Below the pieces are notes generated by a model. The model worked only from the letters and a program-made list of their open reading frames with translations. It was not told where the DNA came from and made no database searches. From a virus: 24,928 nucleotides of DNA. A program made the translations under genes and the position numbers. Below are positions 73-18,172 of this stretch, in pieces; position 1 is the stretch's first letter, and every line of letters starts with the position of its first letter. The DNA lies in IMG/VR virus record IMGVR_UViG_3300038472_000103; one strand, written 5' to 3'.

Positions 73-1389
73 TTAGGGGATCGTGGTAGTTGAGAAAGTG
101 GGAGCGATTTTTTCATATTTAGCGGCACGAAATCCATGAATTCCACACCAAGCACCCACCCCGGATAGAATCATGCCTAAGCCTAGCAATAGTCCGTTAT
201 GATCCCCAAAAATACCGGCCGCGAAGAGAAGTATCGTTGGGCAAACTCCTACCAAGATAGCGCCCAATTTTCCCCCAGGCACACGAAAAGGTCGAGGCAA
301 ATCTGGTTCTTTCCAACGCAATACCACTAAAGCGATAAACTCCAGAATAAGACTCGTTCCATAAAGTAAAATATCCAGCATCACCAGACGGTCAAAATTC
401 AAACCGAACGCTGTTGCCCAAACTGTCGCCAAGGCAAATAAAGCTATCATGGGAACTGACACTGCATTTATTTTTGTGAATATGCGAGGCAGATAATGAT
501 CTTCAGCCAGCGCTGGGGGAATACGAGAATAGCTCATCATGAGGGAGTTCAACATCCCCGCTGCACTGATCATTCCACCCAGTACAATGGCGTCTCGTAC
601 CCAAGAACCCGCGATGATTTCACCAATAGTCGCCCAACTCCCTGTTGACCAGGCAGACAGGGGTACTCCCAGATACCAAGACGCTGCTACGGGGAGAATA
701 TAGCTTCCAACAATCAACAGCATAGTCACCATCATGGCGATGGGGTAGGTTCGTTGAGGTTTTTTGACTTCTGTGGCTATGGTGCTGGCGTTATCCCAAC
801 CCATGAAGTTCCACATAGCGACCATAATACCGCCCATAAGACTGACGGCGTGAGGATGACCCGTAACATGGGTCAGATGGGCGTGTCGGAGAGCTGCTAG
901 GGTGATAATCACAAAAGGGCTCACCATAAGGGCTCCTAACGCCACAGAGCCGTTTCCTACAGCTTTGGCACCCCGAAGGTTCCACAATACGCAAACAGCG
1001 ATTAGAGCCGTTGCTATAAGCGAGCCGTGCCACCCTGCGGTGAAACTTGGAGCCAATACACCCAGGTAAGAAATAAAAAGTAGCGGGTAGATTCCCATAT
1101 CAAATATGGAAGCCGCTAATGAAAGCCAAGCTTCCTGGAATCCCCAAAATTTTCCAAGGGCACGTTGCACCCAAATATAAAAACCCCCGCGATTCGGTAT
1201 CGCAGAGGCGAGTTCACCAACCATCATAGCGGTTGGCAGTGCCCACAGGAAGGGCACTAAGCAAAGAATGAGTATTCCCCATCCGTAACCAGTTTGAGCA
1301 ATTAGGTCTTCTAGACCGTACGGGCCTCCGCTTACCATAAAATACGTAGCGGCGACTAGACCCAAAAGGGTCATTTCTTTTTTCATCAT
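73..1389 (-). CDS. APC-superfamily amino acid/polyamine permease (about 12 TM, 438 aa)
   Basis: Very hydrophobic protein with multiple TM segments throughout. The N-terminal GGPYGLE-type motif in TM1 is typical of APC transporters. TAA stop at 73-75. Confidence 0.65.
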   Translation of the reverse strand: MMKKEMTLLGLVAATYFMVSGGPYGLEDLIAQTGYGWGILILCLVPFLWALPTAMMVGELASAIPNRGGFYIWVQRALGKFWGFQEAWLSLAASIFDMGIYPLLFISYLGVLAPSFTAGWHGSLIATALIAVCVLWNLRGAKAVGNGSVALGALMVSPFVIITLAALRHAHLTHVTGHPHAVSLMGGIMVAMWNFMGWDNASTIATEVKKPQRTYPIAMMVTMLLIVGSYILPVAASWYLGVPLSAWSTGSWATIGEIIAGSWVRDAIVLGGMISAAGMLNSLMMSYSRIPPALAEDHYLPRIFTKINAVSVPMIALFALATVWATAFGLNFDRLVMLDILLYGTSLILEFIALVVLRWKEPDLPRPFRVPGGKLGAILVGVCPTILLFAAGIFGDHNGLLLGLGMILSGVGAWCGIHGFRAAKYEKIAPTFSTTTIP

Positions 1390-1987: not shown

Positions 1988-2063
1988 TGGTGGGTGCATT
2001 CGGACTCGAACCGAAATCGGCCGATTTAAAAGATCGGGGTCTTAGCCATTAGACGATACACCC
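1988..2063 (-). tRNA. tRNA-Lys (anticodon UUU), CCA encoded
   Basis: Reverse complement is GGGTGTA..TGCACCCACCA. Folds as a cloverleaf with 7-bp acceptor, T-arm TTCGG/TTCGAGT/CCGAA and anticodon loop CTTTTAA. Confidence 0.8.
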
Positions 2064-2069
2064 AAAGTT

Positions 2070-2145
2070 TGGTACCCCCGGCCGGGAACGATCCAGCGAC
2101 CCTCCGCTTAAAAGGCGGTGGCTCTACCAACTGAGCTACGGGGGC
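2070..2145 (-). tRNA. tRNA with anticodon UUU (Lys-like), CCA encoded
   Basis: Acceptor is GCCCCCG/CGGGGGT. D-arm GCTCAGTTGGTAGAGC. Anticodon loop CTTTTAA. T-stem GCTGG/CCGGC with an unusual T-loop ATCGTTC. There is a mismatch at positions 27-43. Confidence 0.65.
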
Positions 2146-2156
2146 ATTAAAATTTT

Positions 2157-2231
2157 TGGTACCTCCACCAGGACTTGAACCCGGATCCACGGCTTAGAAG
2201 GCCGGTGCCCTTCCAGTTGGACGATAGAGGC
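2157..2231 (-). tRNA. tRNA-Arg (anticodon UCU), CCA encoded
   Basis: Acceptor GCCTCTA/TGGAGGT. Anticodon stem CCGGC/GCCG(T). Loop CTTCTAA. T-arm CCGGG/TTCAAGT/CCTGG. Confidence 0.75.
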
Positions 2232-2468
2232 ATTTAGAGATTTTTGAACGCGGAAATTTAGCGTTTAGGTCTGAGGTGAAGCGTGGTGAGCGTGTTGTTA
2301 AGAATTACCATCATATTGATACTCCCACGCCTAAAGGCGGGAGATTCTAGGCGGCTAACGCCGCCCTTAACTGTTTCAACCAGCGCTGCTGGCTTTCGCC
2401 AGACTTACACACTGTCCGCAGTCGTTTAACGACTCCATGTATCCCAAGGCGTCGAGAATTCTTAATTC

Positions 2469-2699
2469 TTATTTCCCGAATGCAACATCCAGCATTGATT
2501 TAGCCAGCTTGGTTTTCGCAAGACCTTCAATGCTTGTAGCCTTCAATAAATACTCTCGTAGTTTATAATCTTCTTGATTATCTATCTTTTGATCATCAAG
2601 TTCCAGTGTATCAGGAAGTGTTATATCTGTCAACTGCAAAAGCAGCTCATCAAATACATGATCCAAATCCACATCGAATATGCTGCATTTGATGTACAT
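2469..2699 (-). CDS. hypothetical acidic small protein (76 aa)
   Basis: ORF with a D/E-rich C-terminal half. Lies between tRNA genes. No motif recognised. Confidence 0.4.
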   Translation of the reverse strand: MYIKCSIFDVDLDHVFDELLLQLTDITLPDTLELDDQKIDNQEDYKLREYLLKATSIEGLAKTKLAKSMLDVAFGK

Positions 2700-2706
2700 A
2701 AAAACC

Positions 2707-2783
2707 TGGTATCCTCGGTGGGACTCGAACCCACATTGCTCCTTTACGGTTACTCGTTTAGGAAACGAGGCCGGTACGAGGAT
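2707..2783 (-). tRNA. atypical tRNA-like gene (anticodon-like loop UUCCUAA = CCU, Arg-like); no canonical D arm
   Basis: Canonical acceptor (ATCCTCG/CGAGGAT), T-arm GTGGG/TTCGAGT/CCCAC and encoded ACCA. Internally a 5-bp stem CTCGT/ACGAG with loop TTCCTAA sits only 7 nt after the acceptor. It is followed by an 18-nt unpaired stretch. No standard D stem could be drawn. Confidence 0.45.
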
Positions 2784-2956
2784 GTCTAAACTTCCAAAAT
2801 TTCAATCCTGATCCGCCATTGCAGCAATTATTTCCGCATGTACGCATACAACCATCCAGCATTTGCATTGTGTACACCATTTCCAATAATGCGGAAAAAC
2901 TATAAGTGGCGGTTTTCTTTTGATGCACTTAAAACCTGGTATCCTCTACTCTAGTG

Positions 2957-3115
2957 TCATACTATCATACTTTTAATGGGTTGTTGTTTGCGCCCACGTT
3001 GGCAACCACATTTCAAGCAAGCAATAATCAAATTTACAGGCGGTTCGTTCTCGTCCTTCTGAACAGATTTCCAGTAGGTCGAATCACAAATCGGGCAATG
3101 TTTATCGAACATCAT
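2957..3115 (-). CDS. small zinc-ribbon protein (52 aa; CPIC...CLKCGC)
   Basis: Translated by hand as MMFDKHCPICDSTYWKSVQKDENEPPVNLIIACLKCGCQRGRKQQPIKSMIV. Two CxxC pairs. Below the 60-aa cutoff of the ORF track. Confidence 0.4.
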   Translation of the reverse strand: MMFDKHCPICDSTYWKSVQKDENEPPVNLIIACLKCGCQRGRKQQPIKSMIV

Positions 3116-3223
3116 ATCGGGTACTTCGGTTGAACTAGTCCATAAATTGGTAGTCCCTACCCTTTAAGCTGGGTCAGCACATCCGGGACCAGATGTGACA
3201 CGTAAAGGATCGTGTCAAAGCTT

Positions 3224-3769
3224 CTACGCTTCTAGTTCCACATTCCAATATAGCCAGGTTTCCCACTCTTTCCATTCTGGCCGTAGCTTGTTAATGTGAA
3301 GCTTGAAGTTGTACTTCGGATCGTCCTTCTTCGGCTCCACGGGCTGCTTAAGTAAGTGCATGCCAGCTTCCTTAGGTGTCTGACCGGCCTTACGCTTGTT
3401 GCAGCGCACACAGGCGAGCACCAAATTGGTCCATGAAGATACACCACCTTGAGAACGAGGCATTACGTGGTCAAGAGTATATTCCTGAGTCTTCAATACC
3501 CTACCGCAGTACTGACACCCGCTATTATCCCTAACCGCGATGTTGCGTCTGGAGAAAGGAACGGACAAACGCTTCCTACGAACCCAAGCGTTTTTGACAA
3601 CAATAACCCTTGGCATCTTCCATTCCAGAGAAGGAGACCGTAAAATGCGCCCACCCTCGTCTTCTTTGATAACTTGAGCACGCCCTTCATATATCAATTT
3701 CACAGCGTTCTGCCAGTTACAAAAAGACTGTGGTTGCCAGTTTTGGTCAAGAATTAAAGTGTCTGCCAT
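3224..3769 (-). CDS. HNH homing-type endonuclease (181 aa)
   Basis: HNH motif LDHVMPRSQGG...N...CVRCNKRK. Located inside the tRNA array, as is typical of phage HNH elements. Confidence 0.8.
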   Translation of the reverse strand: MADTLILDQNWQPQSFCNWQNAVKLIYEGRAQVIKEDEGGRILRSPSLEWKMPRVIVVKNAWVRRKRLSVPFSRRNIAVRDNSGCQYCGRVLKTQEYTLDHVMPRSQGGVSSWTNLVLACVRCNKRKAGQTPKEAGMHLLKQPVEPKKDDPKYNFKLHINKLRPEWKEWETWLYWNVELEA

Positions 3770-3838
3770 AATTTACCTTCCTTTCTAAGGAGTCTAAAAG
3801 CCTAAAACATTTTGCATTCTGCTCATACCCCCTAATAC

Positions 3839-4654
3839 TTACTTTCTCTCCAAAGCCTTTCGTTCCCGTCTGCTGAAAGCTTTAGGATTCGGAGGGTCAT
3901 TTTTCAATCCTGCTTTTTTCAGTTCTTTCCGGTTAAGCTGGCGTTTCGTGCTGATGTGCTCAGTCCATTTGATTAAGTAAAAAACCAAGGGCTCGCCTTC
4001 CTCGTTGACTTCGCCATCGATCTTGATGGCGTCATTGACCCGGAAATAGCCCGGACGAATCAGCGTCTTGCCCTCGTGCTTGATAGCGTAGTTCTCGCAG
4101 TAGTACCAGATGCCGTCGAACTTCTCGTAACGCCCGATGTCCGAAAGTCGAATCTCGGTGACGGGCTTTTCTTTCCTGGTGCGATTGCTGCGCCGCCATT
4201 CGCGCCATCCGCTGTACCCACTGTCGCACAAAATCCCGGTATATGGGTGGATATAATAATTATAGGGCTCAGTCAAATAGCCGCCACCACCGGCCCATTC
4301 TCGTACCTTTCCGTCAATGCACATCACAGTATTTTTGGCTACGAATTGCCAAAGATGAGTGAATACATGTAATCCAGTTACACTACGACGATCAAGGTTT
4401 TGACAAATTTCACTGTAGACATCATCCCAATGGCGTCCCACGCTTTTGTGGAGATAACCCTTTAATGGGTTGAGTACATCGCTAAGGTTTTTCCCGCAGT
4501 CATCTTGCCGATGTCGGGACATCGAAGCACGATATGGTTGATCATCGTAGTCCGAATCAGGGTTATATTTGAACCGCTTACCCCACTTCTGAGATCGGTT
4601 TTTTGAACCGTACCTCTCAGCTTCAGTGAGGAGTTTGGCCATGTCTGGGCGCAT
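3839..4654 (-). CDS. hypothetical protein (271 aa)
   Basis: Long ORF with GGAG upstream of the ATG. Basic C-terminus. No motif recognised. Confidence 0.55.
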   Translation of the reverse strand: MRPDMAKLLTEAERYGSKNRSQKWGKRFKYNPDSDYDDQPYRASMSRHRQDDCGKNLSDVLNPLKGYLHKSVGRHWDDVYSEICQNLDRRSVTGLHVFTHLWQFVAKNTVMCIDGKVREWAGGGGYLTEPYNYYIHPYTGILCDSGYSGWREWRRSNRTRKEKPVTEIRLSDIGRYEKFDGIWYYCENYAIKHEGKTLIRPGYFRVNDAIKIDGEVNEEGEPLVFYLIKWTEHISTKRQLNRKELKKAGLKNDPPNPKAFSRRERKALERK

Positions 4655-4741
4655 AGTTCTACCGCTCCTTTGCAGTATCTTAATGAGTATGCATATTTTG
4701 TACCTCCTGTTTTAAATTCATGTAGTTCATTTTACTTCTCC

Positions 4742-4817
4742 TTTTTAAATTTGGTGGGGAATCCCAGAGTTGAACTGGATTCTTTCCGTCTTCAGCGGAA
4801 CGCTATAACCCTACTAG
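4742..4817 (-). tRNA. tRNA-Phe (anticodon GAA), CCA encoded
   Basis: Acceptor GGGGAAT/ATTCCCC. D-stem GCTA/TAGC. Anticodon stem TTCCG/CGGAA. Loop CTGAAGA. Confidence 0.8.
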
Positions 4818-5012
4818 CTCATTCCCCAATATGAATTCTAACTAATTCTTGTTGTTTACCGTTAATCATCCAATACTCTAATGGATGCTCTGTCGCTGGC
4901 TTCCCGCACAAAGCACAATCAGTTCCTGTGTATGTCTGATGCAAAGTGTAGAGATGATTTGGGTCAATCATAATAATACACGCTTACTGGCTTATAATCA
5001 ATTCCTAAATCT

Positions 5013-5088
5013 TGGTGCGCTGGGTGGGCAACGATCCCACAGCCTATCGATTAAGAGTCGAGTGCTCCGCCAATTGAGCTACCAACGC
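5013..5088 (-). tRNA. tRNA-Lys (anticodon CUU), CCA encoded
   Basis: Acceptor GCGTTGG/CCAGCGC. D-arm GCTCAATTGGCGGAGC. Loop CTCTTAA. T-loop ATCGTTG (non-standard). Confidence 0.65.
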
Positions 5089-5168
5089 AAACTTTCTAAA
5101 ACCGGTGGGATTGAAGGATTTCACGAAACGGTCCACTGATCAAGTGTCTATCTTCTCCCAAGAAGCCT

Positions 5169-5239
5169 TCCTCACGGTGGGGATCGAACCCACATCAGCG
5201 CCGTTAATGGCGCTGCTCTACCAATTGAGCTACGTGTAT
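5169..5239 (-). pseudogene. degenerate tRNA (71 nt)
   Basis: Perfect D-arm (GCTCAATTGGTAGAGC) and T-arm (GTGGG/TTCGATC/CCCAC). Acceptor pairs at only 4-5 positions. The anticodon hairpin AGCGCC/GGCGCT encloses ATTAAC, which is 6 nt rather than 7. No CCA. Confidence 0.45.
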
Positions 5240-5340
5240 CATGACTTCAAACTTCAAAACTTATTGAGCGAGTCGCTTTGGTCGTTGCCCTCCATGAACA
5301 AAGTTGCCTTCCACGTAACTCGCTCAAAGTAAATTAGATC

Positions 5341-5375
5341 AGGTGCTCTACTACTGAGCTACACCCGTCATCTGC
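5341..5375 (-). pseudogene. tRNA 5' fragment (acceptor strand + D arm only)
   Basis: GGGTGTAGCTCAGTAGTAGAGCACCTGA. It matches the 5' third of the neighbouring tRNAs, but no partner anticodon or T arm follows. Confidence 0.35.
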
Positions 5376-5443
5376 CTGTAGCCCGAAGGCGTACAGTATA
5401 CGGGAAGATCGGGTACGAGACCGCCGACCTCCTGACCCAAATT

Positions 5444-5518
5444 TGGCTCCTGCGGATGGATTCGAACCACCGACCAAACGGTTAACAGCCGTTCGCTCTG
5501 CCCCTGAGCTACGCAGGA
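5444..5518 (-). tRNA. tRNA-Asn (anticodon GUU), CCA encoded
   Basis: Acceptor TCCTGCG/CGCAGGA. Anticodon stem AACGG/CCGTT. Loop CTGTTAA. T-arm GGTGG/TTCGAAT/CCATC. Confidence 0.8.
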
Positions 5519-5539
5519 ATAATCGTTAAATATCATTTT

Positions 5540-5628
5540 TGGCTGGGACGGCATGATTTGAACATGCAGTGACCAAATTGGTCGCTGGGGTCAGAACCCA
5601 GTGGGGTTGCCGGTTTTCCTACGTCCCA
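5540..5628 (-). tRNA. type-II (long variable arm) tRNA with apparent anticodon CUG and discriminator G73
   Basis: 89 nt. Acceptor TGGGACG/CGTCCCA followed by G and CCA. T-arm GCATG/TTCAAAT/CATGC. Variable arm GACCA-ATT-TGGTC. Only one anticodon hairpin can be drawn: CTGGG/CCCAG with loop TTCTGAC. Confidence 0.5.
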
Positions 5629-5736
5629 ATAAAAATTTTTAGCGCTGCTACTCCCGGCTTCAACCCCGAAGAGTGTTTACCGATGAACTAGCTAAGGGAG
5701 TTGAAGACCCACCTGTTCTACCGGAGCGCTAAAATT

Positions 5737-5823
5737 TGGCTGTGGAGGAGGGTCTCGAACCCCCAGAGTCTTACGACACTGCATTAACAGTGCAGCCCGC
5801 TGCCAATTACGGTTTACTCCACA
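5737..5823 (-). tRNA. type-II tRNA with apparent anticodon GUU and discriminator G73
   Basis: 87 nt. Acceptor TGTGGAG/CTCCACA followed by G and CCA. 3-bp D stem CCG/CGG with a 10-nt loop. Anticodon hairpin CTGCA/TGCAG with loop CTGTTAA. Short variable hairpin GTC-GTAA-GAC. Confidence 0.5.
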
Positions 5824-5827
5824 AAAA

Positions 5828-6097
5828 TCAAATCTCTTCTACTACATGTCCTCTATCTTCGGGACACAGACGAGTGTTAATTACCATTTCTCCTGTAGGA
5901 ACAAGTTCTCCCCTTACTTCCATTGAAGTTTGGTAAGAAACTAAAGATAAATCTTTACCAAATGTCACCTTCCCACAATCGGTACAACGATACTGTTTAT
6001 CTTCGTCTATACCAGACCTATCTTCGACCATTTGTCCTCGAAAATTAATCTTCATAAACTTGGTGCCCCCAGTAAGGTACGATCTTACACTAATCAT
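5828..6097 (-). CDS. hypothetical Cys-containing small protein (89 aa or shorter)
   Basis: ORF containing CTDCGK...CPEDRG. The start codon is uncertain and no strong SD is present. Confidence 0.35.
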   Translation of the reverse strand: MISVRSYLTGGTKFMKINFRGQMVEDRSGIDEDKQYRCTDCGKVTFGKDLSLVSYQTSMEVRGELVPTGEMVINTRLCPEDRGHVVEEI

Positions 6098-6257
6098 CGT
6101 TCGAAGCGATGTTGACTATCCAGTTGCCGATGGAGGCGTGTTAAACTTTTCCAAAAATTCAAGCCAGTACCAATTGCGTTGGGACGCCGTTCTTTTCCGA
6201 TGACAATTGGCACAGCACTACTTAATACGAAAGTCAAACAAAGTTCGTAGTTAAACT

Positions 6258-6334
6258 TGGTAGTCCCAGTAGGATTCGAACCTACACTGATCCGCGTTCG
6301 TAACGCAGTTGACTCTCCAGTTGCCGATGGAACC
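6258..6334 (-). tRNA. tRNA-Arg (anticodon ACG), CCA encoded
   Basis: Acceptor GGTTCCA/TGGGACT with two G-U pairs. Anticodon stem CTGCG/CGCGG. Loop TTACGAA. T-arm GTAGG/TTCGAAT/CCTAC. The D stem is weak. Confidence 0.65.
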
Positions 6335-6339
6335 AAATC

Positions 6340-6415
6340 TGGTGCTCGTGAACGGACTCGAACCGTAAAATCAGCCTTCGCAGGGCTGCGCTTTATCCAG
6401 TTAAGCTACACGAGC
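6340..6415 (-). tRNA. tRNA-Arg (anticodon GCG), CCA encoded
   Basis: Acceptor GCTCGTG/CACGAGC. D-stem GCTT/AAGC. Anticodon stem CAGCC/GGCTG (perfect). Loop CTGCGAA. Confidence 0.65.
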
Positions 6416-6466
6416 GAAATCTAAAATCTGGTGACCCTGTGCTTGTCTACAATCTCTCCCCGTAAC

Positions 6467-6544
6467 TTGGTAGCTCCAGTGGGACTCGAACCCACACTTA
6501 AACCTCCTTCGGAGGGAGGATGACTATCCAATTGCCGATAGAGC
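6467..6544 (-). tRNA. tRNA-Arg (anticodon CCG), CCA encoded
   Basis: Acceptor AGCTCTA/TGGAGCT. Anticodon stem CCTCC/GGAGG. Loop CTCCGAA at canonical positions 32-38. T-arm GTGGG/TTCGAGT/CCCAC. Confidence 0.7.
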
Positions 6545-6712
6545 TGCTTTCAAAAACTTTAAAATCGACTCGCGTACTGCTTGATGCGGGAGGTTCATAC
6601 CTGATCTCCAACGCCTTATCGTCGGCTGACTAACACTCACAGCGTTAGCCAATTCACTGATGGTGAGTTTTGAAGCTCGGATACAGGCTATAAATTCTTC
6701 ATCAGTTATCAT
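6524..6712 (-). CDS. small helix-turn-helix DNA-binding protein (62 aa), paralog 1
   Basis: Sequence ISELANAVSVSQPTIRRW is a typical HTH. About 45% identical to the adjacent ORF. The 3' end overlaps a tRNA 5' end by about 20 nt. Confidence 0.6.
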   Translation of the reverse strand: MITDEEFIACIRASKLTISELANAVSVSQPTIRRWRSGMNLPHQAVRESILKFLKAALSAIG

Positions 6713-6890
6713 TTTGCACCGTAGGCACCAAACTCTTTAAAATCGATTCTCGTACTGCGTTGTACGGTAGATTTTCTCCTACCATCCAACGCGCGATCGT
6801 GTTGTTACTCACCGAAAATTTTTCTGCGATATCGGGCACCTTCATATTCAGTCCCTTTAAAGCATCCATAAATTCTTCATCACTTACCAT
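6702..6890 (-). CDS. small helix-turn-helix DNA-binding protein (63 aa from ATG at 6890), paralog 2
   Basis: MVSDEEFMDAL...SVSNNTIARWM...NAVRESILK. The true ATG is 3 codons inside the TTG-initiated track ORF. Confidence 0.6.
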   Translation of the reverse strand: MVSDEEFMDALKGLNMKVPDIAEKFSVSNNTIARWMVGENLPYNAVRESILKSLVPTVQNDN

Positions 6891-7000
6891 TATACCCAAC
6901 GATGGGGGCTTGATGTGCGCAATTAGACTCAGCTACGAAGTAGCGAATCGTATTGTCTCCGTCGCACGCTGGGCAAGCCCCCATATCTCCGTGTTAATCT

Positions 7001-7081
7001 TGGGGTGGTGTGCGGGGGTCGAACCCGCCAGAAGACAGTTTCACAGACTGCTGTAACATCCCCAGAGTTACCAACACCACC
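7001..7081 (-). tRNA. tRNA-His (anticodon GUG) with G-1, CCA encoded
   Basis: 8-bp acceptor: an extra 5' G (G-1) pairs with C73, the His-tRNA hallmark. Anticodon stem GCAGT/ACTGT. Loop CTGTGAA. T-arm GCGGG/TTCGACC/CCCGC. Confidence 0.8.
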
Positions 7082-7109
7082 AGATATCATTTACTTCTAC
7101 ATCTAAAGG

Positions 7110-7183
7110 CAGGGGTGACAGGATTCGAACCTGCTTAACTCCGTTTTGGAGACGGATGCCCTTCCCATCGGGTCATCACCCCT
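7110..7183 (-). tRNA. tRNA-Trp (anticodon CCA); 3' CCA not encoded (CCT)
   Basis: Acceptor AGGGGTG/CACCCCT. Anticodon stem TCCGT/ACGGA. Loop CTCCAAA. T-arm GCAGG/TTCGAAT/CCTGT. Confidence 0.75.
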
Positions 7184-7212
7184 AAAAAGTAAAAGCCCAC
7201 TTTTCAGTGGGC
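7184..7212 (-). terminator. intrinsic terminator (minus strand)
   Basis: Hairpin GCCCACT-GAAA-AGTGGGC followed on the minus strand by TTTTACTTTTT. Confidence 0.65.
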
Positions 7213-15081: not shown

Positions 15082-15504
15082 TCACATATTCTCTTTCTGA
15101 TCGGTACCCATTTTTTCCAGTAAATCCAAAATAATATCTGTATCTTTTCCTTCTTCTTGTTTGAATTTATCGCTAGTGCCTAGTACCATTTTTAGCACAC
15201 TTATTGACAATAACTCAATGCCAAACTCAGCCAAGTGTGTATCAAGGAGGTGTTTTTCTTCTTCCCCTAGAAGCGCAATCGATGCTCTGAAAAGAATTTG
15301 AAAAGCTGTCATCGCCACAGCTGGATGTACTTTTTCGTTCAGGCAAATATCCCCTATTTGATGTACTAGCGTCACTACCGCATCTGAGTTCAAGGCTTCC
15401 TCGCCCAGTTGCATGGAAGATGAAGGAGAAAGTGATCTGGTTATTTTTTCTAATTCATCTGCTAACGCTTCAATTGGTTTGGGTTTTTCGTATTTTTCAA
15501 ACAT
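15082..15504 (-). CDS. hypothetical acidic helical protein (140 aa)
   Basis: ORF with no recognisable motif. Confidence 0.45.
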   Translation of the reverse strand: MFEKYEKPKPIEALADELEKITRSLSPSSSMQLGEEALNSDAVVTLVHQIGDICLNEKVHPAVAMTAFQILFRASIALLGEEEKHLLDTHLAEFGIELLSISVLKMVLGTSDKFKQEEGKDTDIILDLLEKMGTDQKENM

Positions 15505-15814
15505 ATTGTCTCCCAGTGTTAGACCCTAATTTTTTTACCAGGATTTCTTCTTGTTCTGTTAGGGTTCGTCCCATAATATCACGAACCGCTTTTCCTAAAT
15601 TAATGAAATCCGCTTTCCGCTCATCTTCCACATATTGGACAATGTTTTGGATTCCGCTTTCACTGGGATTCATCCTAAGTACAGCCAGAAGTTCCATGAG
15701 CGGGTCCTTCACTCTGGCTTCATGCGTAGGAATCACCGGAGTCTGAACAATCAGACGCTTACGAAGTACACATTTTTTTGCTGCATTCTTCGCCTTAAAC
15801 TTCGCTTTTGTCAT
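15497..15814 (-). CDS. hypothetical protein with basic N-terminus (105 aa)
   Basis: ORF with a lysine-rich N-terminus. Confidence 0.45.
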   Translation of the reverse strand: MTKAKFKAKNAAKKCVLRKRLIVQTPVIPTHEARVKDPLMELLAVLRMNPSESGIQNIVQYVEDERKADFINLGKAVRDIMGRTLTEQEEILVKKLGSNTGRQYV

Positions 15815-15948
15815 TTTTTCACCTGGAAGAAAAATTTATCAGCAGAAGGCTGATTCATGATGAGTTCTTGGCATTTACTGGGGACTGCTATCAGTACGAG
15901 TATGAAAAGAATAAACCCCAATAAGTAATTGAATTCAGTGCGATCCAT
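15812..15948 (-). CDS. small hydrophobic (single-TM) protein (about 45 aa)
   Basis: Found by hand. GAGAGG SD. The stop codon overlaps the next ATG (ATGA). Confidence 0.3.
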
Positions 15949-16001
15949 AGAGTTTTACCTCTCAACTCTTTAGATGCTAACAGATTAAAAATGAAATGGA
16001 A

Positions 16002-16095
16002 AATTTTATTTTGGTAGTGGGCCGGGGAGTTGAACCCACGCCGTCGCTCTAATCTGGAGCTTTCCCGAGTTTATAAGGCTCAGCCGCACACCAGT
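16002..16095 (-). tRNA. long (94-nt) tRNA-like gene; anticodon not assignable
   Basis: Acceptor GGTGGGC/GCCCACT followed by A and CCA. T-loop TTCAACT. No canonical anticodon arm could be drawn; the only candidate is GCTC-CAGATTA-GAGC, which lacks U33. The length is in the tRNA-Sec/Ser range. Confidence 0.4.
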
Positions 16096-16107
16096 GCTGC
16101 CCACCAC

Positions 16108-16190
16108 ATCCAAATTTTGGTACCCAGAGGGGGACTCGAACCCCCACCCTTTCGGACTCGATCTTAAGCCGAGCGCGTCTTCCAATTTCG
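16108..16190 (-). tRNA. tRNA-Leu (anticodon UAA), type II, CCA encoded
   Basis: Acceptor GCCCGGA/TCTGGGT. 3-bp D stem with an 11-nt loop. Anticodon stem CTCGG/TCGAG. Loop CTTAAGA. Variable arm present. T-arm GGGGG/TTCGAGT/CCCCC. Confidence 0.75.
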
Positions 16191-16200
16191 CCATCCGGGC

Positions 16201-16389
16201 CTATCTTGTAACTCCATAATTTTGTATATACTGCGGGTCTGCATGCATACATTCATCGCAAATAATGGTCTCGTAATTCCTGGCGTATTTTCTCCAACAA
16301 CCCAAGCTTACATCGTAAAATCCGCAGGTAAACCTTTCGTGAAAATCGCCTTCAACTTTTCGCTTACATCGATCACAATGAATCAGCAT
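16201..16389 (-). CDS. small Cys-rich protein (62 aa)
   Basis: Six Cys in CxxC-like spacing. ATGA overlap with the upstream PTH2 gene. Confidence 0.45.
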   Translation of the reverse strand: MLIHCDRCKRKVEGDFHERFTCGFYDVSLGCWRKYARNYETIICDECMHADPQYIQNYGVTR

Positions 16390-16664
16390 TATTCTCTGGG
16401 GTCATCCTCATAGAAAGCCAAAACAGTTTCACTGCCCGCTGGAATTTCCGTGTAGCCCGCATCGGTCACTACATATCCCTCTGGATGCGCTTCTTTTGCT
16501 TCCTCGAATTTTTTATCGCTAGCATCCAGCACCACGCATGACCAATGATCCTGCGGATTTTTTTTGTAAAGCCCTAGAGCTGCATGTACACATTGAGCGG
16601 ATTGCTTATTTTCACTCATGTGCAAATTTTTTCTAACGATGAGCTTAATTCTCATTTTGCTCAC
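16389..16664 (-). CDS. PTH2-family peptidyl-tRNA hydrolase (91 aa)
   Basis: MRIKLIVRKNLHMSENKQSAQCVHAAL and YVVTDAGYTEIPAGSETVLA match the PTH2 core (KMVLVVRxDLxMGKGKIAAQCSHAA ... DAGRTQIAPGSxTVL). Confidence 0.75.
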   Translation of the reverse strand: MSKMRIKLIVRKNLHMSENKQSAQCVHAALGLYKKNPQDHWSCVVLDASDKKFEEAKEAHPEGYVVTDAGYTEIPAGSETVLAFYEDDPRE

Positions 16665-16965
16665 CCGTACATGTATAACATGTACCGTTTAATTCCAGCG
16701 CATCTCCACAAGAAGGGCAGCGGTCAGATTCATCGAGATCTGATGGTTCGGTGGTATCTTCTAGAACTCTATCCAGATAGCAATAATCCATCATATCCTG
16801 GTGGGCCTTAATGTACGCTTTTCGCAAACTATTGAATTTTTTATCTTTGAATTCTTTAAAATCCCAGTTCTGCAAAACATAATCCAAACTTCCTTCCCAC
16901 TCTATTTTGGCGTTAAATTCTCGTGCGTTCTCAATGGACAACAGTGGTTTATTTTTTCTCTTCAT
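16645..16965 (-). CDS. hypothetical protein with C-terminal zinc ribbon (106 aa)
   Basis: The C-terminus reads CPSCG...CYTC. Confidence 0.45.
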   Translation of the reverse strand: MKRKNKPLLSIENAREFNAKIEWEGSLDYVLQNWDFKEFKDKKFNSLRKAYIKAHQDMMDYCYLDRVLEDTTEPSDLDESDRCPSCGDALELNGTCYTCTGEQNEN

Positions 16966-16994
16966 CGTAACTCCTTACGATAATACCATAAAGT

Positions 16995-17083
16995 TGGCCG
17001 AGAGAAAGGGATTCGAACCCTTGATACCTTACGGTATACCAGTTTTCAAGACTGGCGGCATAATCCATCTCGCCCATCTCTCG
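16995..17083 (-). tRNA. tRNA-Ser (anticodon UGA), type II, CCA encoded
   Basis: Acceptor CGAGAGA/TCTCTCG followed by G and CCA. D stem GGC/GCC. Anticodon stem CCAGT/ACTGG. Loop CTTGAAA. Variable arm TATACC/GGTATC. Confidence 0.8.
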
Positions 17084-17090
17084 GTAAAGG

Positions 17091-17177
17091 CAGAGAGTAC
17101 CGGACTCGAACCGGTGTGCCCTATTTCTAGAAGCAGTCGCTTTCGAGGCGACCTACCATGCCCACTGGTTACTCTCT
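17091..17177 (-). tRNA. tRNA-Ser (anticodon CGA), type II; no encoded CCA
   Basis: Acceptor AGAGAGT/ACTCTCT followed by G. Anticodon stem GTCGC/GCGAC. Loop CTCGAAA. T-arm ACCGG/TTCGAGT/CCGGT. Confidence 0.7.
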
Positions 17178-17182
17178 AAACT

Positions 17183-17271
17183 TGGCGATGACAGACCGAT
17201 TCGAACGATCGATACCTTGCGGTATGGTAGCTTTCCAAGCTACTGGGTTAATCCATCTCCCCCATGTCATC
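17183..17271 (-). tRNA. tRNA-Ser (anticodon GGA), type II, CCA encoded
   Basis: Acceptor GATGACA/TGTCATC followed by G and CCA. Anticodon stem GTAGC/GCTAC. Loop TTGGAAA. Variable arm ATACC/GGTAT. Confidence 0.8.
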
Positions 17272-17370
17272 AAATCGCAGGGAACATAAAACATACAGTT
17301 GGTACAACTCCACTGCCGGGTTTCCCCCAGTGGGTATCGAAGTAACTGTACGCAACACCGCTGCGAATTT

Positions 17371-17820
17371 TTACTCTTCTGGACCTTCACCGACTTCGAT
17401 GAAGTCCATTAAATCTTCCCCACCAGCATATTTACTAGTGTTACCGCCTAGCCATCCGTTAAAAGCTCCCTGCTCTGTGGCTTTACGAATACCTTCAACT
17501 AAAAACAACCAGGCATCGTATGGCATGTCCCTGCGTAGATAGTTGCATCGCATACATGCTGGATTGACATTCGTCTTTAAATGACCTAAGCTATTATCTA
17601 TTCTATCCAAGGTCATCCTTATTTTTGTCTCTCCGCAGTAAAAACATCCATTGCTAATTTTATCCTTAATAAAGTCTTTGTCAAGATCATTTTCCCGAAG
17701 CAATTTTTTATCTGAGCTACGAGAATCTCGCCAAATAATGCTAGGTAAAAATTTAGGATCTTGCCTACGCCTTTTAGCCCAACGATGCCGTTTTTCCCTA
17801 CAAACTATTTTAGTGTCCAT
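17371..17820 (-). CDS. HNH homing-type endonuclease (149 aa)
   Basis: CFYCGE...LDRIDNSLGH...NPACMRCNYLRRDM is the T4-type HNH signature. Confidence 0.8.
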   Translation of the reverse strand: MDTKIVCREKRHRWAKRRRQDPKFLPSIIWRDSRSSDKKLLRENDLDKDFIKDKISNGCFYCGETKIRMTLDRIDNSLGHLKTNVNPACMRCNYLRRDMPYDAWLFLVEGIRKATEQGAFNGWLGGNTSKYAGGEDLMDFIEVGEGPEE

Positions 17821-17852
17821 GCTAAGAACACAGAAAGTTTGTTTTGATGTTA

Positions 17853-17942
17853 TGGCGGAAGTGCCGAGGCTCGAACTCGGATAGCCCTTTCAGGCTTCGG
17901 CGGCTTAGCAAACCGCTGGTTTAACCATTCACCCACACTTCC
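17853..17942 (-). tRNA. tRNA-Ser (anticodon GCU), type II, CCA encoded
   Basis: Reads GGAAGTGTGGGTGAATGGTTAAACC...GCGGT-TTGCTAA-GCCGC...CCGAG-TTCGAGC-CTCGG-CACTTCC-G-CCA. The acceptor is identical to the E. coli tRNA-Ser scaffold. Confidence 0.85.
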
Positions 17943-17944
17943 TT

Positions 17945-17974
17945 AAAATAAAAAAGCCGCCTTAATCGGCGGCT
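17945..17974 (-). terminator. intrinsic terminator (minus strand)
   Basis: Hairpin AGCCGCC-GATTAA-GGCGGCT followed on the minus strand by TTTTTTATTTT. Confidence 0.75.
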
Positions 17975-18026: not shown

Positions 18027-18172
18027 TTGAACTTCTTTTTTAAATGCGGGTTCTCCCCCACATAAAGATTCTCAGGCTACGCTTGAATTTAATACTTCTA
18101 CGTTAACGCCTGATGGCTCGTTCCGAACCAACTACTCTTTATATAATACTGATAGTTGGAAAATTTGTCAAG
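18027..18172 (-). repeat. ~146-bp direct repeat, copy B: minus-strand sigma70 promoter + leader
   Basis: Near-identical to 7372-7516. -35 TTGACA (plus 18166-18171), 17-nt spacer, -10 TATTAT (plus 18143-18148). Confidence 0.85.

What the first reader, a model, noticed from the sequence alone, without database searches (positions are those of the whole stretch)
1988..17942. tRNA arrays encode every Arg and every Ser isoacceptor plus three Lys tRNAs
Hand-folding gives these sets:
- Arg: UCU, ACG, GCG, CCG, and a CCU-like gene.
- Ser: UGA, CGA, GGA, GCU.
- Lys: UUU twice, plus CUU.
- Single genes: Phe, Asn, His (with G-1), Trp, Leu-UAA.

Complete sets for the two six-codon families and tripled Lys are not what simple codon-usage compensation predicts. 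Lys, Arg and Ser-family tRNAs are targets of bacterial anticodon nucleases and tRNA-depleting defences (PrrC/RloC-type, colicin-like, and retron or PARIS-type effectors). An anti-defence tRNA repertoire is a plausible reading. The PTH2 hydrolase at 16389-16664 is embedded in the same array.
Basis: partly seen in the sequence, partly recalled or inferred. Interest (0 to 1): 0.6.

Follow-up and report, generated by a model that had tools for sequence, protein, structure and literature searches.

The report
Huge-phage tRNA island with long-armed tRNAs
This is the tRNA gene island of an uncultured, probably very large peat-soil bacteriophage: it carries every arginine and serine anticodon and three lysine tRNAs beside RNA-repair genes, and some of its tRNAs have an unexpected extra hairpin arm.

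Summary
ARAGORN and Rfam find 22 tRNA-like genes, all on the minus strand, between 1988 and 17942. Also present: a second Asn, a Gln-CUG, one decayed tRNA and a UAU tRNA-like element. PTH2 is confirmed.

The source appears to be a huge phage from peat and bog metagenomes, probably infecting Acidobacteriota. The array order Trp-His-Arg-Asn-Gln-Lys-Arg-Lys recurs in relatives down to about 46% protein identity. It lies next to a conserved pair of genes: a major-vault-protein homologue and the RlaP tRNA-repair nucleotidyltransferase.

Against a Terriglobia codon-usage proxy, compensation explains Leu-UAA, Lys-UUU and Arg-UCU. It does not explain CCG, GCG, CGA or CUG, which read codons the phage under-uses. 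The anti-defence reading is therefore plausible but unproven, and it is an already published idea.

The new element: Gln and Asn tRNAs here, and Arg, Lys and Trp tRNAs in relatives, carry a short variable-arm hairpin capped by a GNRA loop. The same design occurs in cultured Pseudomonas, Xanthomonas and Ruegeria phages.

The parts
1988..2063 (-). tRNA-Lys(UUU), copy 1, CCA encoded
   Evidence: ARAGORN; Rfam tRNA 57.4 bits
2070..2145 (-). tRNA-Lys(UUU), copy 2. Its body differs from copy 1.
   Evidence: ARAGORN; Rfam 55.3 bits
2157..2231 (-). tRNA-Arg(UCU)
   Evidence: ARAGORN; Rfam 51.9 bits
2707..2783 (-). Arg(CCU)-like tRNA with no D-arm. It keeps the acceptor, anticodon and T arms and a small variable hairpin. 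Probably degenerate.
   Evidence: Rfam 36.6 bits, only in the sensitive scan. ARAGORN does not call it. Fold. Identical in all strains. Relatives have intact Arg-CCU genes.
2795..3139 (.). 345-bp strain-specific insertion. It carries a 52-aa Cys-rich ORF (2957-3115) and a duplicated tRNA 3' end.
   Evidence: Absent from strains L001 and L004, present in L002; sequence
3224..3769 (-). HNH homing-type endonuclease between tRNA blocks
   Evidence: Pfam HNH_5, E = 1.6e-14. Conserved at the same array position in L013 and L015.
4752..4827 (-). tRNA-Phe(GAA)
   Evidence: ARAGORN; Rfam 50.0 bits
5013..5088 (-). tRNA-Lys(CUU)
   Evidence: ARAGORN; Rfam 55.1 bits
5169..5239 (-). Decayed tRNA: 6-nt anticodon loop (AUUAAC), mismatched acceptor stem, no CCA
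   Evidence: ARAGORN reports 'tRNA-???(ta)'; Rfam 44.5 bits; fold
5335..5366 (-). 5' half of a tRNA (acceptor strand, D-arm and start of the anticodon stem). A relic.
   Evidence: Read directly from the sequence. No tRNA finder calls it.
5444..5518 (-). tRNA-Asn(GUU), canonical 75 nt
   Evidence: ARAGORN; Rfam 65.7 bits
5540..5628 (-). tRNA-Gln(CUG), 89 nt, with a variable-arm hairpin. It has U1-A72, G2-C71, G3-C70 and G73.
   Evidence: ARAGORN; Rfam 42.4 bits. Orthologues in L015 and L020 have compensated stems.
5737..5823 (-). tRNA-Asn(GUU), 87 nt, with a variable-arm hairpin (GUC-GUAA-GAC). It has U1-A72 and G73.
   Evidence: ARAGORN; Rfam 31.8 bits. Four further distinct long Asn genes in relatives L015/L020, L024 and L062 have fully compensated stems.
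6061..6137 (-). tRNA-Arg(UCG) with A54/U58 in the T-loop. A paralogue of the ACG and CCG genes.
   Evidence: ARAGORN. No Rfam match even at E <= 5. Paralogy.
6258..6334 (-). tRNA-Arg(ACG) on an unusual body with a 3-bp D-stem. Its closest match is the Arg-UCG gene of relative L020.
   Evidence: ARAGORN; Rfam 32.8 bits; 79% identical to L020 Arg-UCG
6340..6415 (-). tRNA-Arg(GCG), canonical body
   Evidence: ARAGORN; Rfam 62.2 bits; 84% identical to L020 Arg-GCG
6468..6545 (-). tRNA-Arg(CCG) on the same unusual body
   Evidence: ARAGORN; Rfam 38.0 bits
7001..7081 (-). tRNA-His(GUG) with encoded G-1 opposite C73 and an extended D-arm
   Evidence: ARAGORN. In Rfam it appears only as a sub-threshold tRNA-Sec match (31.1 bits). 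Orthologues in L020 and L062.
7108..7183 (-). tRNA-Trp(CCA). Only CC of the CCA end is encoded.
   Evidence: ARAGORN; Rfam 39.3 bits
8956..9789 (-). RlaP nucleotidyltransferase, an enzyme that mends RNA 3' ends
   Evidence: Pfam PF10127, E = 2.4e-18; PHROG 388, E = 4.7e-46; biochemistry in PMC12776372
10066..12546 (-). Major-vault-protein homologue. It is always adjacent to RlaP in close relatives.
   Evidence: Pfam MVP_shoulder, E = 3.6e-26. The only hits in the phage collection are huge phages LR756500, LR756501 and LR756503. Synteny.
13249..13527 (-). Remnant of the polynucleotide kinase-phosphatase gene: the last roughly 50 residues of the HAD phosphatase domain
   Evidence: Pfam HAD_PNKP, E = 2.8e-10, profile positions 95-143 of 143; PHROG 505
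16012..16105 (-). 94-nt tRNA-like element with a UAU anticodon loop, a long variable arm and A73-CCA. It resembles allo-tRNA(UAU).
   Evidence: ARAGORN at relaxed threshold. Rfam tRNA-Sec 27.4 bits, below threshold. Conserved directly after Leu-UAA in L100 and L062, with a covarying variable-arm stem.
16118..16200 (-). tRNA-Leu(UAA)
   Evidence: ARAGORN; Rfam 50.3 bits
16389..16664 (-). PTH2-type peptidyl-tRNA hydrolase
   Evidence: Pfam PF01981, E = 5.4e-12
16995..17083 (-). tRNA-Ser(UGA)
   Evidence: ARAGORN; Rfam 52.6 bits
17089..17177 (-). tRNA-Ser(CGA), non-canonical: 6-bp anticodon stem, possibly an 8/4 acceptor/T arrangement, and only CC of the CCA end encoded
   Evidence: ARAGORN. In Rfam it appears only as a sub-threshold tRNA-Sec match (26.7 bits).
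17183..17271 (-). tRNA-Ser(GGA)
   Evidence: ARAGORN; Rfam 45.4 bits
17371..17820 (-). Endonuclease VII / HNH-like nuclease inside the Ser block
   Evidence: PHROG 1035, E = 9.8e-15
17853..17942 (-). tRNA-Ser(GCU)
   Evidence: ARAGORN; Rfam 54.4 bits

Best explanation
What it is (shown): the tRNA island of an uncultured, probably huge phage from peat and bog. The host is probably Acidobacteriota of the class Terriglobia. About 19 apparently functional tRNA genes, co-oriented with the surrounding genes, lie in three blocks:
- Ser (four genes), Leu-UAA and a UAU element;
- Trp, His, Arg (four genes), Asn (two), Gln, Lys and Phe;
- Arg-UCU and Lys-UUU (two genes).
The blocks are interleaved with HNH and endonuclease-VII-type nucleases and tRNA relics. 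They flank a conserved module made of a major-vault-protein homologue and RlaP, plus a PNKP remnant and PTH2.

How it most likely works (inferred): during infection the island gives the phage its own pool of tRNAs. The pool decodes every Arg, Ser and Lys codon, plus Asn, Gln-CAG, His, Trp, Phe and Leu-UUR. Translation can then continue when host tRNAs are too scarce or have been destroyed. Two pressures act together:
1. Supply for A-ending codons that a 59% G+C host rarely uses. This accounts for Leu-UAA, Lys-UUU (two genes), Arg-UCU and perhaps the UAU element.
2. Insurance against loss of host tRNAs to cleavage by defence nucleases or to host shut-off. This accounts for the redundant complete families and for the C34 and G34 isoacceptors, which read codons the phage under-uses. 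It also fits the duplicated Asn, Gln and Lys genes with altered architecture and the neighbouring RlaP and PTH2 repair and rescue enzymes.
For: Identity and integrity of the genes.

Phage origin:
- No close match in the phage collection.
- The vault-protein homologue matches only huge phages LR756500, LR756501 and LR756503.
- Syntenic relatives are listed in IMG/VR.
- A relative on a 338-kb contig encodes a tail-fibre protein near its MVP gene.
- Relatives lie on contigs of 436 and 894 kb.

Conservation: the order and composition of the array recur in eight divergent loci.

Selection on the anticodon set rather than the gene bodies: the window's Arg-UCG, ACG and CCG genes are paralogues on one unusual body. 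The window's Arg-ACG is closest to the Arg-UCG of L020.

Host hint: the 80 best genome matches to the phage's permease are almost all Acidobacteriota, including Stordalen palsa and bog MAGs.

Codon test against this proxy (59% G+C, GC3 0.71, versus phage GC3 0.42):
- TTA 6.5x, ATA 4.6x, AAA 3.7x and AGA 3.6x over-used, each with a cognate gene (p = 0.03).
- CGC 0.30x, CGG 0.34x, TCG 0.26x and CAG 0.47x, also with cognate genes.
- No overall enrichment, p = 0.64.

Repair context: RlaP, PNKP remnant and PTH2. Published roles are in PMC7824862 section 3.4.9 and PMC12776372.
Against: - The host is inferred from one auxiliary gene, not from CRISPR spacers or culture. The codon proxy uses crude ORF calls.
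- No tRNA-targeting nuclease of the host is known.
- Of three comparable isoacceptors, two have anticodon loops identical to Terriglobia tRNAs.
- No RNA ligase was seen and PNKP is a fragment, so the repair pathway is incomplete within the roughly 44 kb examined.
- The rest of the genome was not seen. Relatives hold Leu (four genes), Tyr, Gly, Met and Pro tRNAs elsewhere. The emphasis on Arg, Ser and Lys may therefore come from where the window falls.
- Expression and aminoacylation are untested.
Confidence: 0.5

Rival explanations
1. Pure supply and autonomy. The island is one section of a near-complete tRNA complement, typical of huge phages. It serves only to match a 45% G+C genome to a 59% G+C host and to raise translation capacity late in infection. 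It has no link to defence.
For: - Huge phages carry up to 67 tRNAs, and the number rises with genome size (PMC7162821).
- Relatives cluster Leu (four genes), Tyr, Gly, Met and Pro tRNAs as well.
- The phage uses all six Arg and all six Ser codons, at 9-29% each.
- Four of the five codons most over-used relative to the host proxy have a cognate gene.
Against: - Codons with a cognate gene are not enriched overall (p = 0.64).
- The conserved Gln tRNA is CUG although the phage prefers CAA (63%).
- CCG, GCG and CGA read codons that are abundant in the proxy host and under-used by the phage.
- ACG, GCG, UCG and CCG together are redundant for decoding.
Confidence: 0.3
2. Replacement after the phage's own shut-off. 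The phage degrades host DNA and RNA, host tRNAs decay, and the phage's tRNAs keep late translation going. No host defence nuclease is involved.
For: This explains complete families regardless of codon bias. It is compatible with the array being conserved and with the many nucleases encoded in the region. It rests on my own knowledge of published work on tRNA turnover during lytic infection, which I did not retrieve here.
Against: Nothing in the window shows degradation of host tRNA. It does not explain why RlaP and PTH2 accompany the array, nor why Asn, Gln and Lys tRNAs exist in two architectures.
Confidence: 0.12
3. Largely decaying cargo. The arrays are kept and shuffled by homing endonucleases and duplication, and many members are pseudogenes with little function.
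For: - Clear relics exist: 5169-5239, about 5335-5366, the Arg-CCU gene without a D-arm, and duplicated 3' ends.
- Three nucleases are interleaved with the tRNAs.
- Several Arg genes score low in Rfam: 32.8 bits, 38.0 bits and no match.
Against: - Order and anticodon content are kept across relatives down to about 46% protein identity.
- In ARAGORN's models, every pair drawn in the unusual tRNAs is canonical although the stem sequences differ between relatives.
- 17 genes pass Rfam's curated threshold.
Confidence: 0.05

Closest known systems
tRNA gene clusters of jumbo and huge phages (mycobacteriophage cluster C1, T5, XacN1, the huge phages of Al-Shayeb 2020)
   Same: Dozens of co-oriented tRNA genes interleaved with HNH endonucleases and small ORFs. 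RlaP and PTH2 lie nearby. RlaP homologues occur in cluster C1 phages such as Rizal, and a putative aminoacyl-tRNA hydrolase gene lies next to the array of Ruegeria phage V10.
   Different: This lineage has no near-identical DNA match in the phage collection. It keeps all six Arg anticodons, including both ACG and GCG. It is linked to a major-vault-protein homologue and holds several non-canonical tRNAs.
Phage tRNAs that escape defence nucleases (T5 tRNA-Lys, Thr and Asn against PARIS AriB; the van den Berg and Brouns hypothesis)
   Same: Lys-UUU and Asn-GUU are exactly the kinds of isoacceptor that AriB cuts, and T5 supplies resistant copies of them (PMC12409363). Phage copies here are multiple and differ in structure from each other.
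   Different: In T5, escape comes from point changes around positions 39-41. Here the striking difference is a whole extra hairpin in the variable region. No cognate nuclease or host tRNA is known, so escape is not shown.
T4 tRNA repair (PNKP plus Rnl1 against PrrC)
   Same: Enzymes that heal RNA ends lie close to Lys tRNA genes. RlaP is present, and so is part of a PNKP phosphatase domain.
   Different: The kinase is missing, the phosphatase is a 50-residue remnant and no ligase was found. The T4 pathway cannot run from these genes alone.
allo-tRNAs of Acidobacteria and soil metagenomes (Mukai 2017, PMC5389517)
   Same: The element at 16012-16105 has a UAU anticodon, which is the commonest allo-tRNA anticodon. 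It also has a long variable arm and a 4-bp D-stem with a 4-nt loop, weakly matches the tRNA-Sec model, and comes from a peat setting linked to Acidobacteria.
   Different: The discriminator is A73, not G or U. The L062 orthologue, read by eye, folds as ordinary 7/5 rather than 8/4 or 9/3. It sits in a phage tRNA array, not beside a toxin-antitoxin locus.
Nematode nev-tRNAs (class II tRNAs with Gly or Ile anticodons; PMC3333845, abstract only)
   Same: tRNAs that carry a long variable arm but whose anticodons are not those of Leu, Ser or Tyr.
   Different: The nev-tRNA abstract says they decode an alternative code for leucine. The phage tRNAs keep the acceptor features I recall for Gln and Asn identity (U1-A72, G73). 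Their variable-arm stems are short (3-5 bp), so normal charging seems more likely, though it is untested.

Membership tests
Phage tRNA gene array | Several cloverleaf tRNA genes clustered and co-oriented | tested here: met
   20 ARAGORN calls and 17 Rfam hits at the gathering score, all on the minus strand
Phage tRNA gene array | The genome is a phage | tested here: met
   Met by indirect evidence only; no capsid or terminase gene was seen in the window. The evidence: syntenic IMG/VR contigs; the MVP homologue matches only huge phages; tail-fibre PHROG hits on a relative's contig; HNH, endonuclease VII and NAD-dependent ligase genes nearby.
Codon-compensation tRNA set | Phage tRNAs match codons that are over-used by the phage relative to its host | tested here: inconclusive
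   Tested against a Terriglobia proxy. Four of the five most over-used codons are covered (p = 0.03). Overall there is no enrichment (p = 0.64), and five cognate codons are among the 15 most under-used. The host is not established.
Nuclease-evading phage tRNAs (van den Berg 2023; T5 against PARIS) | The phage isoacceptor differs from the host tRNA at the nuclease's recognition or cleavage site | tested here: inconclusive
   Only three host-proxy isoacceptors were available. The Ser-GCU and Ser-GGA anticodon loops are identical. Leu-UAA differs at position 37. No Arg, Lys or Asn host tRNAs were recovered.
Nuclease-evading phage tRNAs (van den Berg 2023; T5 against PARIS) | A host nuclease depletes the matching host tRNA, and the phage tRNA rescues infection | not testable with these tools
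   This needs a host, a defence system and infection assays.
T4-type tRNA healing and sealing | Complete PNKP (kinase plus phosphatase) | tested here: not met
   Only profile positions 95-143 of 143 of the HAD_PNKP domain are present. There is no kinase domain.
T4-type tRNA healing and sealing | RNA ligase (Rnl1, Rnl2 or RtcB) | tested here: not met
   No ligase family was hit among the window ORFs scanned, nor in the precomputed Pfam labels of the flanking loci. It could lie elsewhere in the genome.
RlaP RNA-repair nucleotidyltransferase | Match to PF10127 above the curated cut-off | tested here: met
   67.2 bits against a cut-off of 23; PHROG 388, E = 4.7e-46
allo-tRNA (for 16012-16105) | Long variable arm and a tRNA-Sec-like D-arm | tested here: met
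   4-bp D-stem with a 4-nt loop, and a variable-arm hairpin whose stem covaries in L100 and L062
allo-tRNA (for 16012-16105) | 12-bp acceptor branch arranged as 8/4 or 9/3 | tested here: inconclusive
   The window copy has only 3 good T-stem pairs. The L062 orthologue, read by eye, folds as 7/5.
allo-tRNA (for 16012-16105) | Discriminator G73 or U73 (Ser identity) | tested here: not met
   A73 in the window, L100 and L062
Class II tRNA (for 5540-5628 and 5737-5823) | Variable region of 10 nt or more that forms a stem-loop | tested here: met
   Variable regions of 14-17 nt with 3-4 bp stems. All 43 variable-arm pairs that ARAGORN drew in 13 distinct genes are canonical.
Class II tRNA (for 5540-5628 and 5737-5823) | Leu, Ser, Tyr or Sec anticodon | tested here: not met
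   The anticodons are CUG (Gln) and GUU (Asn)

The most novel reading that the evidence does not exclude
Large phages may carry a distinct class of tRNAs that I could not find described. These have class-I identities: Asn and Lys widely, and Gln, Arg and Trp in this peat clade. They have gained a short variable-arm hairpin capped by a GNRA loop. In the window, several relatives and cultured phages Milchi and X1, a copy of ordinary length with the same anticodon is also present. The extra arm projects beside the 3' strand of the anticodon stem, the site cut by PARIS-type nucleases. It may therefore act as a steric shield or a 'private' mark. It could let the phage copy escape host tRNA nucleases, or other tRNA-directed toxins, while still being charged by the normal synthetase.
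Probability: 0.3. Interest if true: 0.8.

Novelty: new variant of a known kind. Interest (0 to 1): 0.5.

Why it matters
Why phages carry tRNAs is a question more than fifty years old. It is now being reopened by the finding that many bacterial defence systems kill phage by cutting tRNAs.

This locus adds three things:
- It shows an environmental clade of very large phages in which a defined tRNA set has been kept through deep divergence. The set holds all Arg and all Ser anticodons and multiple Lys and Asn genes. Codon matching explains only part of it.
- The set is linked to a vault-protein homologue and the RlaP tRNA-mending enzyme. That suggests a combined 'replace and repair' island.
- It draws attention to tRNAs for Asn, Gln, Lys, Arg and Trp that carry an added hairpin arm.

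The same design occurs in cultured Pseudomonas, Xanthomonas and Ruegeria phages. The idea that tRNA architecture, not only anticodon-loop sequence, is used to evade defence can therefore be tested at the bench.

Tried and rejected
- Near-identity search of the whole window against the phage collection: no match.
- IMG/VR scan with the single RlaP protein: nothing. A three-sequence alignment was needed.
- Exact look-up of the OmpA ORF: not on record, because the true gene is longer than the window.
- Huge phages LR756500 and LR756501 share the MVP homologue but have no tRNAs within 20 kb of it. The MVP-tRNA link is therefore specific to this clade.
- I first read the long Gln and Asn tRNAs as Ser-type mistranslators, because of G73 and the long arm. 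I set that reading aside. From my recollection of E. coli identity rules, not checked here, U1-A72 with G73 (plus G2-C71 and G3-C70 for Gln) are the native Gln and Asn features. The arm is also only 3-5 bp. Charging by SerRS is not excluded.
- An 8/4 reading of the His tRNA was rejected because the eighth pair would be U-C. It is an ordinary 7/5 tRNA with G-1 and a long D-arm.
- The MAFFT alignment of the long tRNAs was out of register at the 5' end. I counted pairs from ARAGORN's structures instead. These list only pairs that ARAGORN accepted, so the 100% figure is biased upward.
- BLAST of the long Gln tRNA against phages: no match.
- A survey of public collections for long-armed tRNAs by DNA pattern was judged unworkable. 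My rough estimate was thousands of chance matches for 14 specified bases.
- The whole-genome tRNA complement of this phage could not be obtained. Its contigs break inside the arrays, and only 10-kb flanks can be fetched.

Full report

Yes. ARAGORN reports 20 tRNA genes, all on the minus strand, between 1988 and 17942. Rfam's tRNA model confirms 17 of them at its curated threshold, with E-values from 2e-12 to 4e-3.
- Arg-UCU, ACG, GCG and CCG;
- Ser-UGA, CGA, GGA and GCU;
- Lys-UUU twice, plus Lys-CUU;
- Phe-GAA, Asn-GUU, Trp-CCA and Leu-UAA;
- His-GUG, with G-1 encoded at 7081 opposite C73.

The 'CCU-like' gene lies at about 2707-2783. It scores 36.6 bits, but only in the sensitive Rfam scan. 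It has acceptor, anticodon and T arms but no D-arm, and ARAGORN does not call it. PTH2 at 16389-16664 is confirmed.

- Arg-UCG at 6061-6137, so all six Arg anticodons are present;
- a second Asn-GUU at 5737-5823;
- a Gln-CUG at 5540-5628;
- a decayed tRNA with a six-base anticodon loop at 5169-5239;
- a 94-nt UAU tRNA-like element at 16012-16105;
- a 5' tRNA fragment near 5335-5366.

Arg-UCG, His and Ser-CGA are not reported under the general Rfam tRNA model, but their stems are intact. The 8.5 kb beyond the window's high-coordinate end and the 10 kb beyond its low-coordinate end hold no further tRNAs.

**2. Where does it come from?**

The window has no near-identical relative among 50,697 phage records. 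An exact copy of its RlaP protein occurs in 134 data blocks. The six contigs inspected include Stordalen Mire (WOOD18) assemblies and JGI metagenomes, and these contigs reach 153 kb.

Genes nearby include an NAD-dependent DNA ligase, an AAA ATPase, ferredoxin, an SprT-like protease, Ku, methionine aminopeptidase and ADP-ribosylglycohydrolase. There are also many small ORFs without known families, nearly all on one strand.

Several results point to a huge phage:
- The 826-residue protein at 10066-12546 is a major-vault-protein homologue. Its only matches in the phage collection are the 462-kb and 735-kb huge phages of Al-Shayeb et al..
- Closer homologues (60-77% identity) lie on metagenomic contigs of 338, 436 and 894 kb.
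- One relative encodes a tail-fibre protein near its MVP gene.
- Two syntenic relatives are listed as viral genomes in IMG/VR.

I therefore treat the element as a huge phage. No capsid or terminase gene was seen directly.

The phage's amino-acid permease is closest (50-57% identity) to proteins of Acidobacteriota. These are almost all Terriglobia and include palsa and bog MAGs. This is a hint to the host, not proof.

**3. Is the repertoire a stable feature?**

Loci centred on RlaP homologues were taken from metagenomes and IMG/VR. They show the same order again and again: Trp, His, the CGN-reading Arg genes, two Asn, Gln-CUG, one or two Lys-CUU, Arg-CCU, sometimes Arg-UCU, then Lys-UUU twice. 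Where the contig reaches far enough, three Ser genes and Leu-UAA lie upstream. These relatives share as little as 46% RlaP identity with the window.

The bodies of the genes change while the anticodon set stays. In the window, Arg-UCG, ACG and CCG are each other's closest relatives (71-77% identity) and share an unusual three-pair D-stem. The window's Arg-ACG is most similar (79%) to the Arg-UCG of relative L020. Keeping ACG, GCG, UCG and CCG together is redundant for decoding. As far as I know it is also unusual for bacteria.

The array also decays and is rebuilt. It holds relics, duplicated 3' ends, three interleaved nucleases, and a 345-bp insertion present in some strains only.

**4. Does codon usage explain it?**

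Fifty phage genes (10,652 codons) have GC3 of 0.42 and use all six Arg and all six Ser codons. As a host proxy I used 77 Acidobacteriota loci (1.39 Mb, 59% G+C, GC3 0.71).

| Codon | Phage use relative to proxy | Cognate gene in window |
|---|---|---|
| TTA | 6.5x | Leu-UAA |
| ATA | 4.6x | UAU element |
| AAA | 3.7x | Lys-UUU (two genes) |
| AGA | 3.6x | Arg-UCU |
| CGC | 0.30x | Arg-GCG |
| CGG | 0.34x | Arg-CCG |
| TCG | 0.26x | Ser-CGA |
| CAG | 0.47x | Gln-CUG |

- TTA, ATA, AAA and AGA are four of the five codons most over-used by the phage. Finding a cognate gene for four of the top five has p = 0.03. It falls to p = 0.13 if the two doubtful genes are left out.
- Overall, codons with a cognate gene are no more over-used than the rest (p = 0.64).
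- The conserved Gln tRNA is CUG although the phage prefers CAA (63%).

Compensation therefore explains part of the set, but not its completeness. This conclusion depends on the host inference.

**5. Context that bears on mechanism**

Between the blocks lie the MVP homologue and RlaP. The two are adjacent in every close relative examined. RlaP adds one or two nucleotides to damaged RNA 3' ends and restores the chargeability of over-trimmed tRNA (PMC12776372). In jumbo phages it has been proposed to act with RNA ligases against wobble-excising anticodon nucleases (PMC7824862).

The same review proposes that PTH2 frees ribosomes jammed by cleaved peptidyl-tRNA. It describes phage tRNAs as substitutes for cleaved host tRNAs.

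The repair pathway is not complete here. PNKP survives only as the last roughly 50 residues of its phosphatase domain, and no RNA ligase was found in about 44 kb.

Host-proxy tRNAs could be compared for only three isoacceptors. Two have identical anticodon loops and one differs at position 37.

The anti-defence reading is thus consistent with the neighbourhood and with the codon test. It is not demonstrated, and it is already in the literature (PMC10264068; PMC7824862; PMC12409363).

**6. The unexpected part**

The Gln-CUG (89 nt) and the second Asn-GUU (87 nt) have ordinary 7/5 acceptor/T arms. From my recollection of E. coli identity rules, their acceptor ends (U1-A72 and G73, plus G2-C71 and G3-C70 for Gln) fit Gln and Asn identity. 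Their variable region, however, forms a hairpin.

Relatives hold thirteen distinct genes of this kind, for Asn, Gln, Arg-ACG, Arg-CCU, Lys-UUU and Trp.
- The extra arm is a stem of three to five pairs.
- Of the thirteen, eight end in a GNRA tetraloop and one in UUCG. The three Gln genes have other loops.
- In ARAGORN's models, every pair drawn in every stem is canonical although the sequences differ widely. That count includes only pairs ARAGORN accepted.

The window, L015, L020 and L024 also hold an ordinary-length Asn gene beside the long one. The window itself has no ordinary-length Gln gene, and L062 has two long Asn genes and no short one.

A BLAST search with one long Asn gene then found the same design in other phages:

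| Phage | Long-armed tRNA | Ordinary-length copy seen in the stretch examined |
|---|---|---|
| Pseudomonas phage Milchi | Asn, 87 nt | Asn, 75 nt |
| Xanthomonas phage X1 | Asn, 86 nt; Lys-CUU, 89 nt | Asn, 76 nt; Lys-CUU, 76 nt |
| Ruegeria phage vB_RpoS-V10 | Lys-CUU, 88 nt | Lys-CUU, 75 nt |
| Huge phage LR756502 | Lys-UUU, 87 and 89 nt; Lys-CUU, 82 nt | none |

In those records the genes are annotated simply as tRNA-Asn or tRNA-Lys. Three literature searches found no discussion of them. The nearest described analogue is the nematode nev-tRNA.

PARIS AriB cuts Lys-UUU, Thr-UGU and Asn-GUU between positions 40 and 41, next to the variable region (PMC12409363). A bacterial Schlafen also cuts the anticodon arm of Lys-UUU (PMC13056530). 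A steric-shield role for the added arm is therefore a concrete and testable idea. It remains an inference.

**7. Other non-canonical members**

- The UAU element at 16012-16105 follows Leu-UAA directly in the window, L100 and L062. Its variable-arm stem covaries (GCUC/GAGC, UCCC/GGGA, CCUC/GGGG) and its loop YAGAUUR is conserved. It resembles allo-tRNA(UAU), the commonest allo-tRNA of Acidobacteria and peat metagenomes, whose function is unknown (PMC5389517). It has A73, however, and the L062 orthologue folds as 7/5 by eye. ATA is 4.6 times over-used by the phage, so the element may be its AUA decoder.
- Ser-CGA has a six-pair anticodon stem and could fold as 8/4. Mukai et al. reported that arrangement for phage Ser tRNAs.

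**8. Verdict**

The region is a conserved tRNA island of a new huge-phage lineage. It most likely supplies a phage-owned tRNA pool that serves two ends: supply of rare codons, and insurance against loss of host tRNA, backed by RlaP and PTH2. The anti-defence reading is partly supported and is not new. The long-armed tRNAs with class-I identities are the feature most worth following up.

Noticed in passing
window 5540-5628 and 5737-5823; L015, L020, L024, L062; L192-L195: tRNAs for Gln and Asn carry an added variable-arm hairpin of 3-5 bp, mostly capped by GNRA. Relatives have the same for Arg-ACG, Arg-CCU, Lys-UUU and Trp. The same design for Asn and Lys occurs in cultured Pseudomonas phage Milchi, Xanthomonas phage X1, Ruegeria phage vB_RpoS-V10 and huge phage LR756502. 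In the three cultured phages a copy of ordinary length is also present.
   Followed up: partly
window 16012-16105; L100 2269-2365; L062 7993-8090: A 94-nt tRNA-like element has a UAU anticodon loop, a covarying variable-arm stem, a conserved YAGAUUR loop and A73-CCA. It always follows Leu-UAA directly. It resembles the allo-tRNA(UAU) of Acidobacteria. It may decode AUA, which the phage over-uses 4.6 times relative to the host proxy.
   Followed up: partly
window 10066-12546 with 8956-9789; L013, L015, L017: A major-vault-protein homologue has thousands of metagenomic relatives and no PHROG family. It is always adjacent to RlaP in close relatives. In L017 it lies directly beside a Ser/Leu/Tyr tRNA array. 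A link between a vault-like shell protein and tRNAs or RNA repair in phages is unexplained.
   Followed up: partly
window 13249-13527: Only the C-terminal roughly 50 residues of a PNKP phosphatase domain remain. Gene calls across this stretch differ between strains (77, 195 and 224 aa in L001, L006 and L003). This suggests a gene that is broken or being lost.
   Followed up: partly
window 6061-6545: Arg-UCG, ACG and CCG share one unusual body with a 3-bp D-stem and a 6-7 nt variable loop. The window's Arg-ACG is closest to the Arg-UCG of L020. Anticodons have therefore been switched on a duplicated body while the set stayed complete. Arg-UCG also has A54/U58 in place of T54/A58.
   Followed up: yes
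window 2795-3139: A 345-bp segment is present in this strain and L002 but absent from L001, L003 and L004. It carries a 52-aa Cys-rich ORF and a copy of the last 16 nt of the Arg-CCU-like gene (GAGGATACCAGGTTTT). It looks like a small mobile insertion next to a tRNA 3' end.
   Followed up: partly
window 6524-6712 and 6702-6899: Two adjacent small ORFs of 62 and 65 aa lie between His and Arg-CCG. They look like paralogues and their sequences look helix-turn-helix-like. Not scanned against any family library.
   Followed up: no
window 5634-5737, 5264-5327, 6902-6984, 6167-6213: Several spacers between tRNA genes form long hairpins with arms of 10-13 nt, some nested. They could be processing signals, small RNAs or relics of mobile elements.
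   Followed up: no
window 7972-8031: A perfect 15-bp tandem repeat in four copies (CATGTTCTCCCACGC) lies in the ORF-poor stretch between RlaP and the Trp tRNA.
   Followed up: no
window 7193-7214 and 17955-17974 (minus strand); 7487-7515 and 18143-18171: Terminator-like hairpins lie immediately upstream of the Trp and Ser-GCU genes. Near-consensus TTGACA-17-TATTAT sites lie 200-300 nt further upstream. The tRNA blocks may therefore be separate transcription units. These are pattern matches only.
   Followed up: no
window 73-1389, 20783-21649, 22585-23457, 23479-24924; L109: The phage carries cell-type transport and envelope genes: an APC-family amino-acid permease, an ABC ATPase with a permease, and an OmpA-domain protein. 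Downstream lie an ADP-ribosylglycohydrolase, methionine aminopeptidase and Ku. The permease's nearest cellular relatives are Terriglobia.
   Followed up: partly
L013 19228-19701; L015 19224-19691: Relatives carry a 155-157-aa fragment of histidyl-tRNA synthetase between their Trp and His tRNA genes. It is absent from the window.
   Followed up: no
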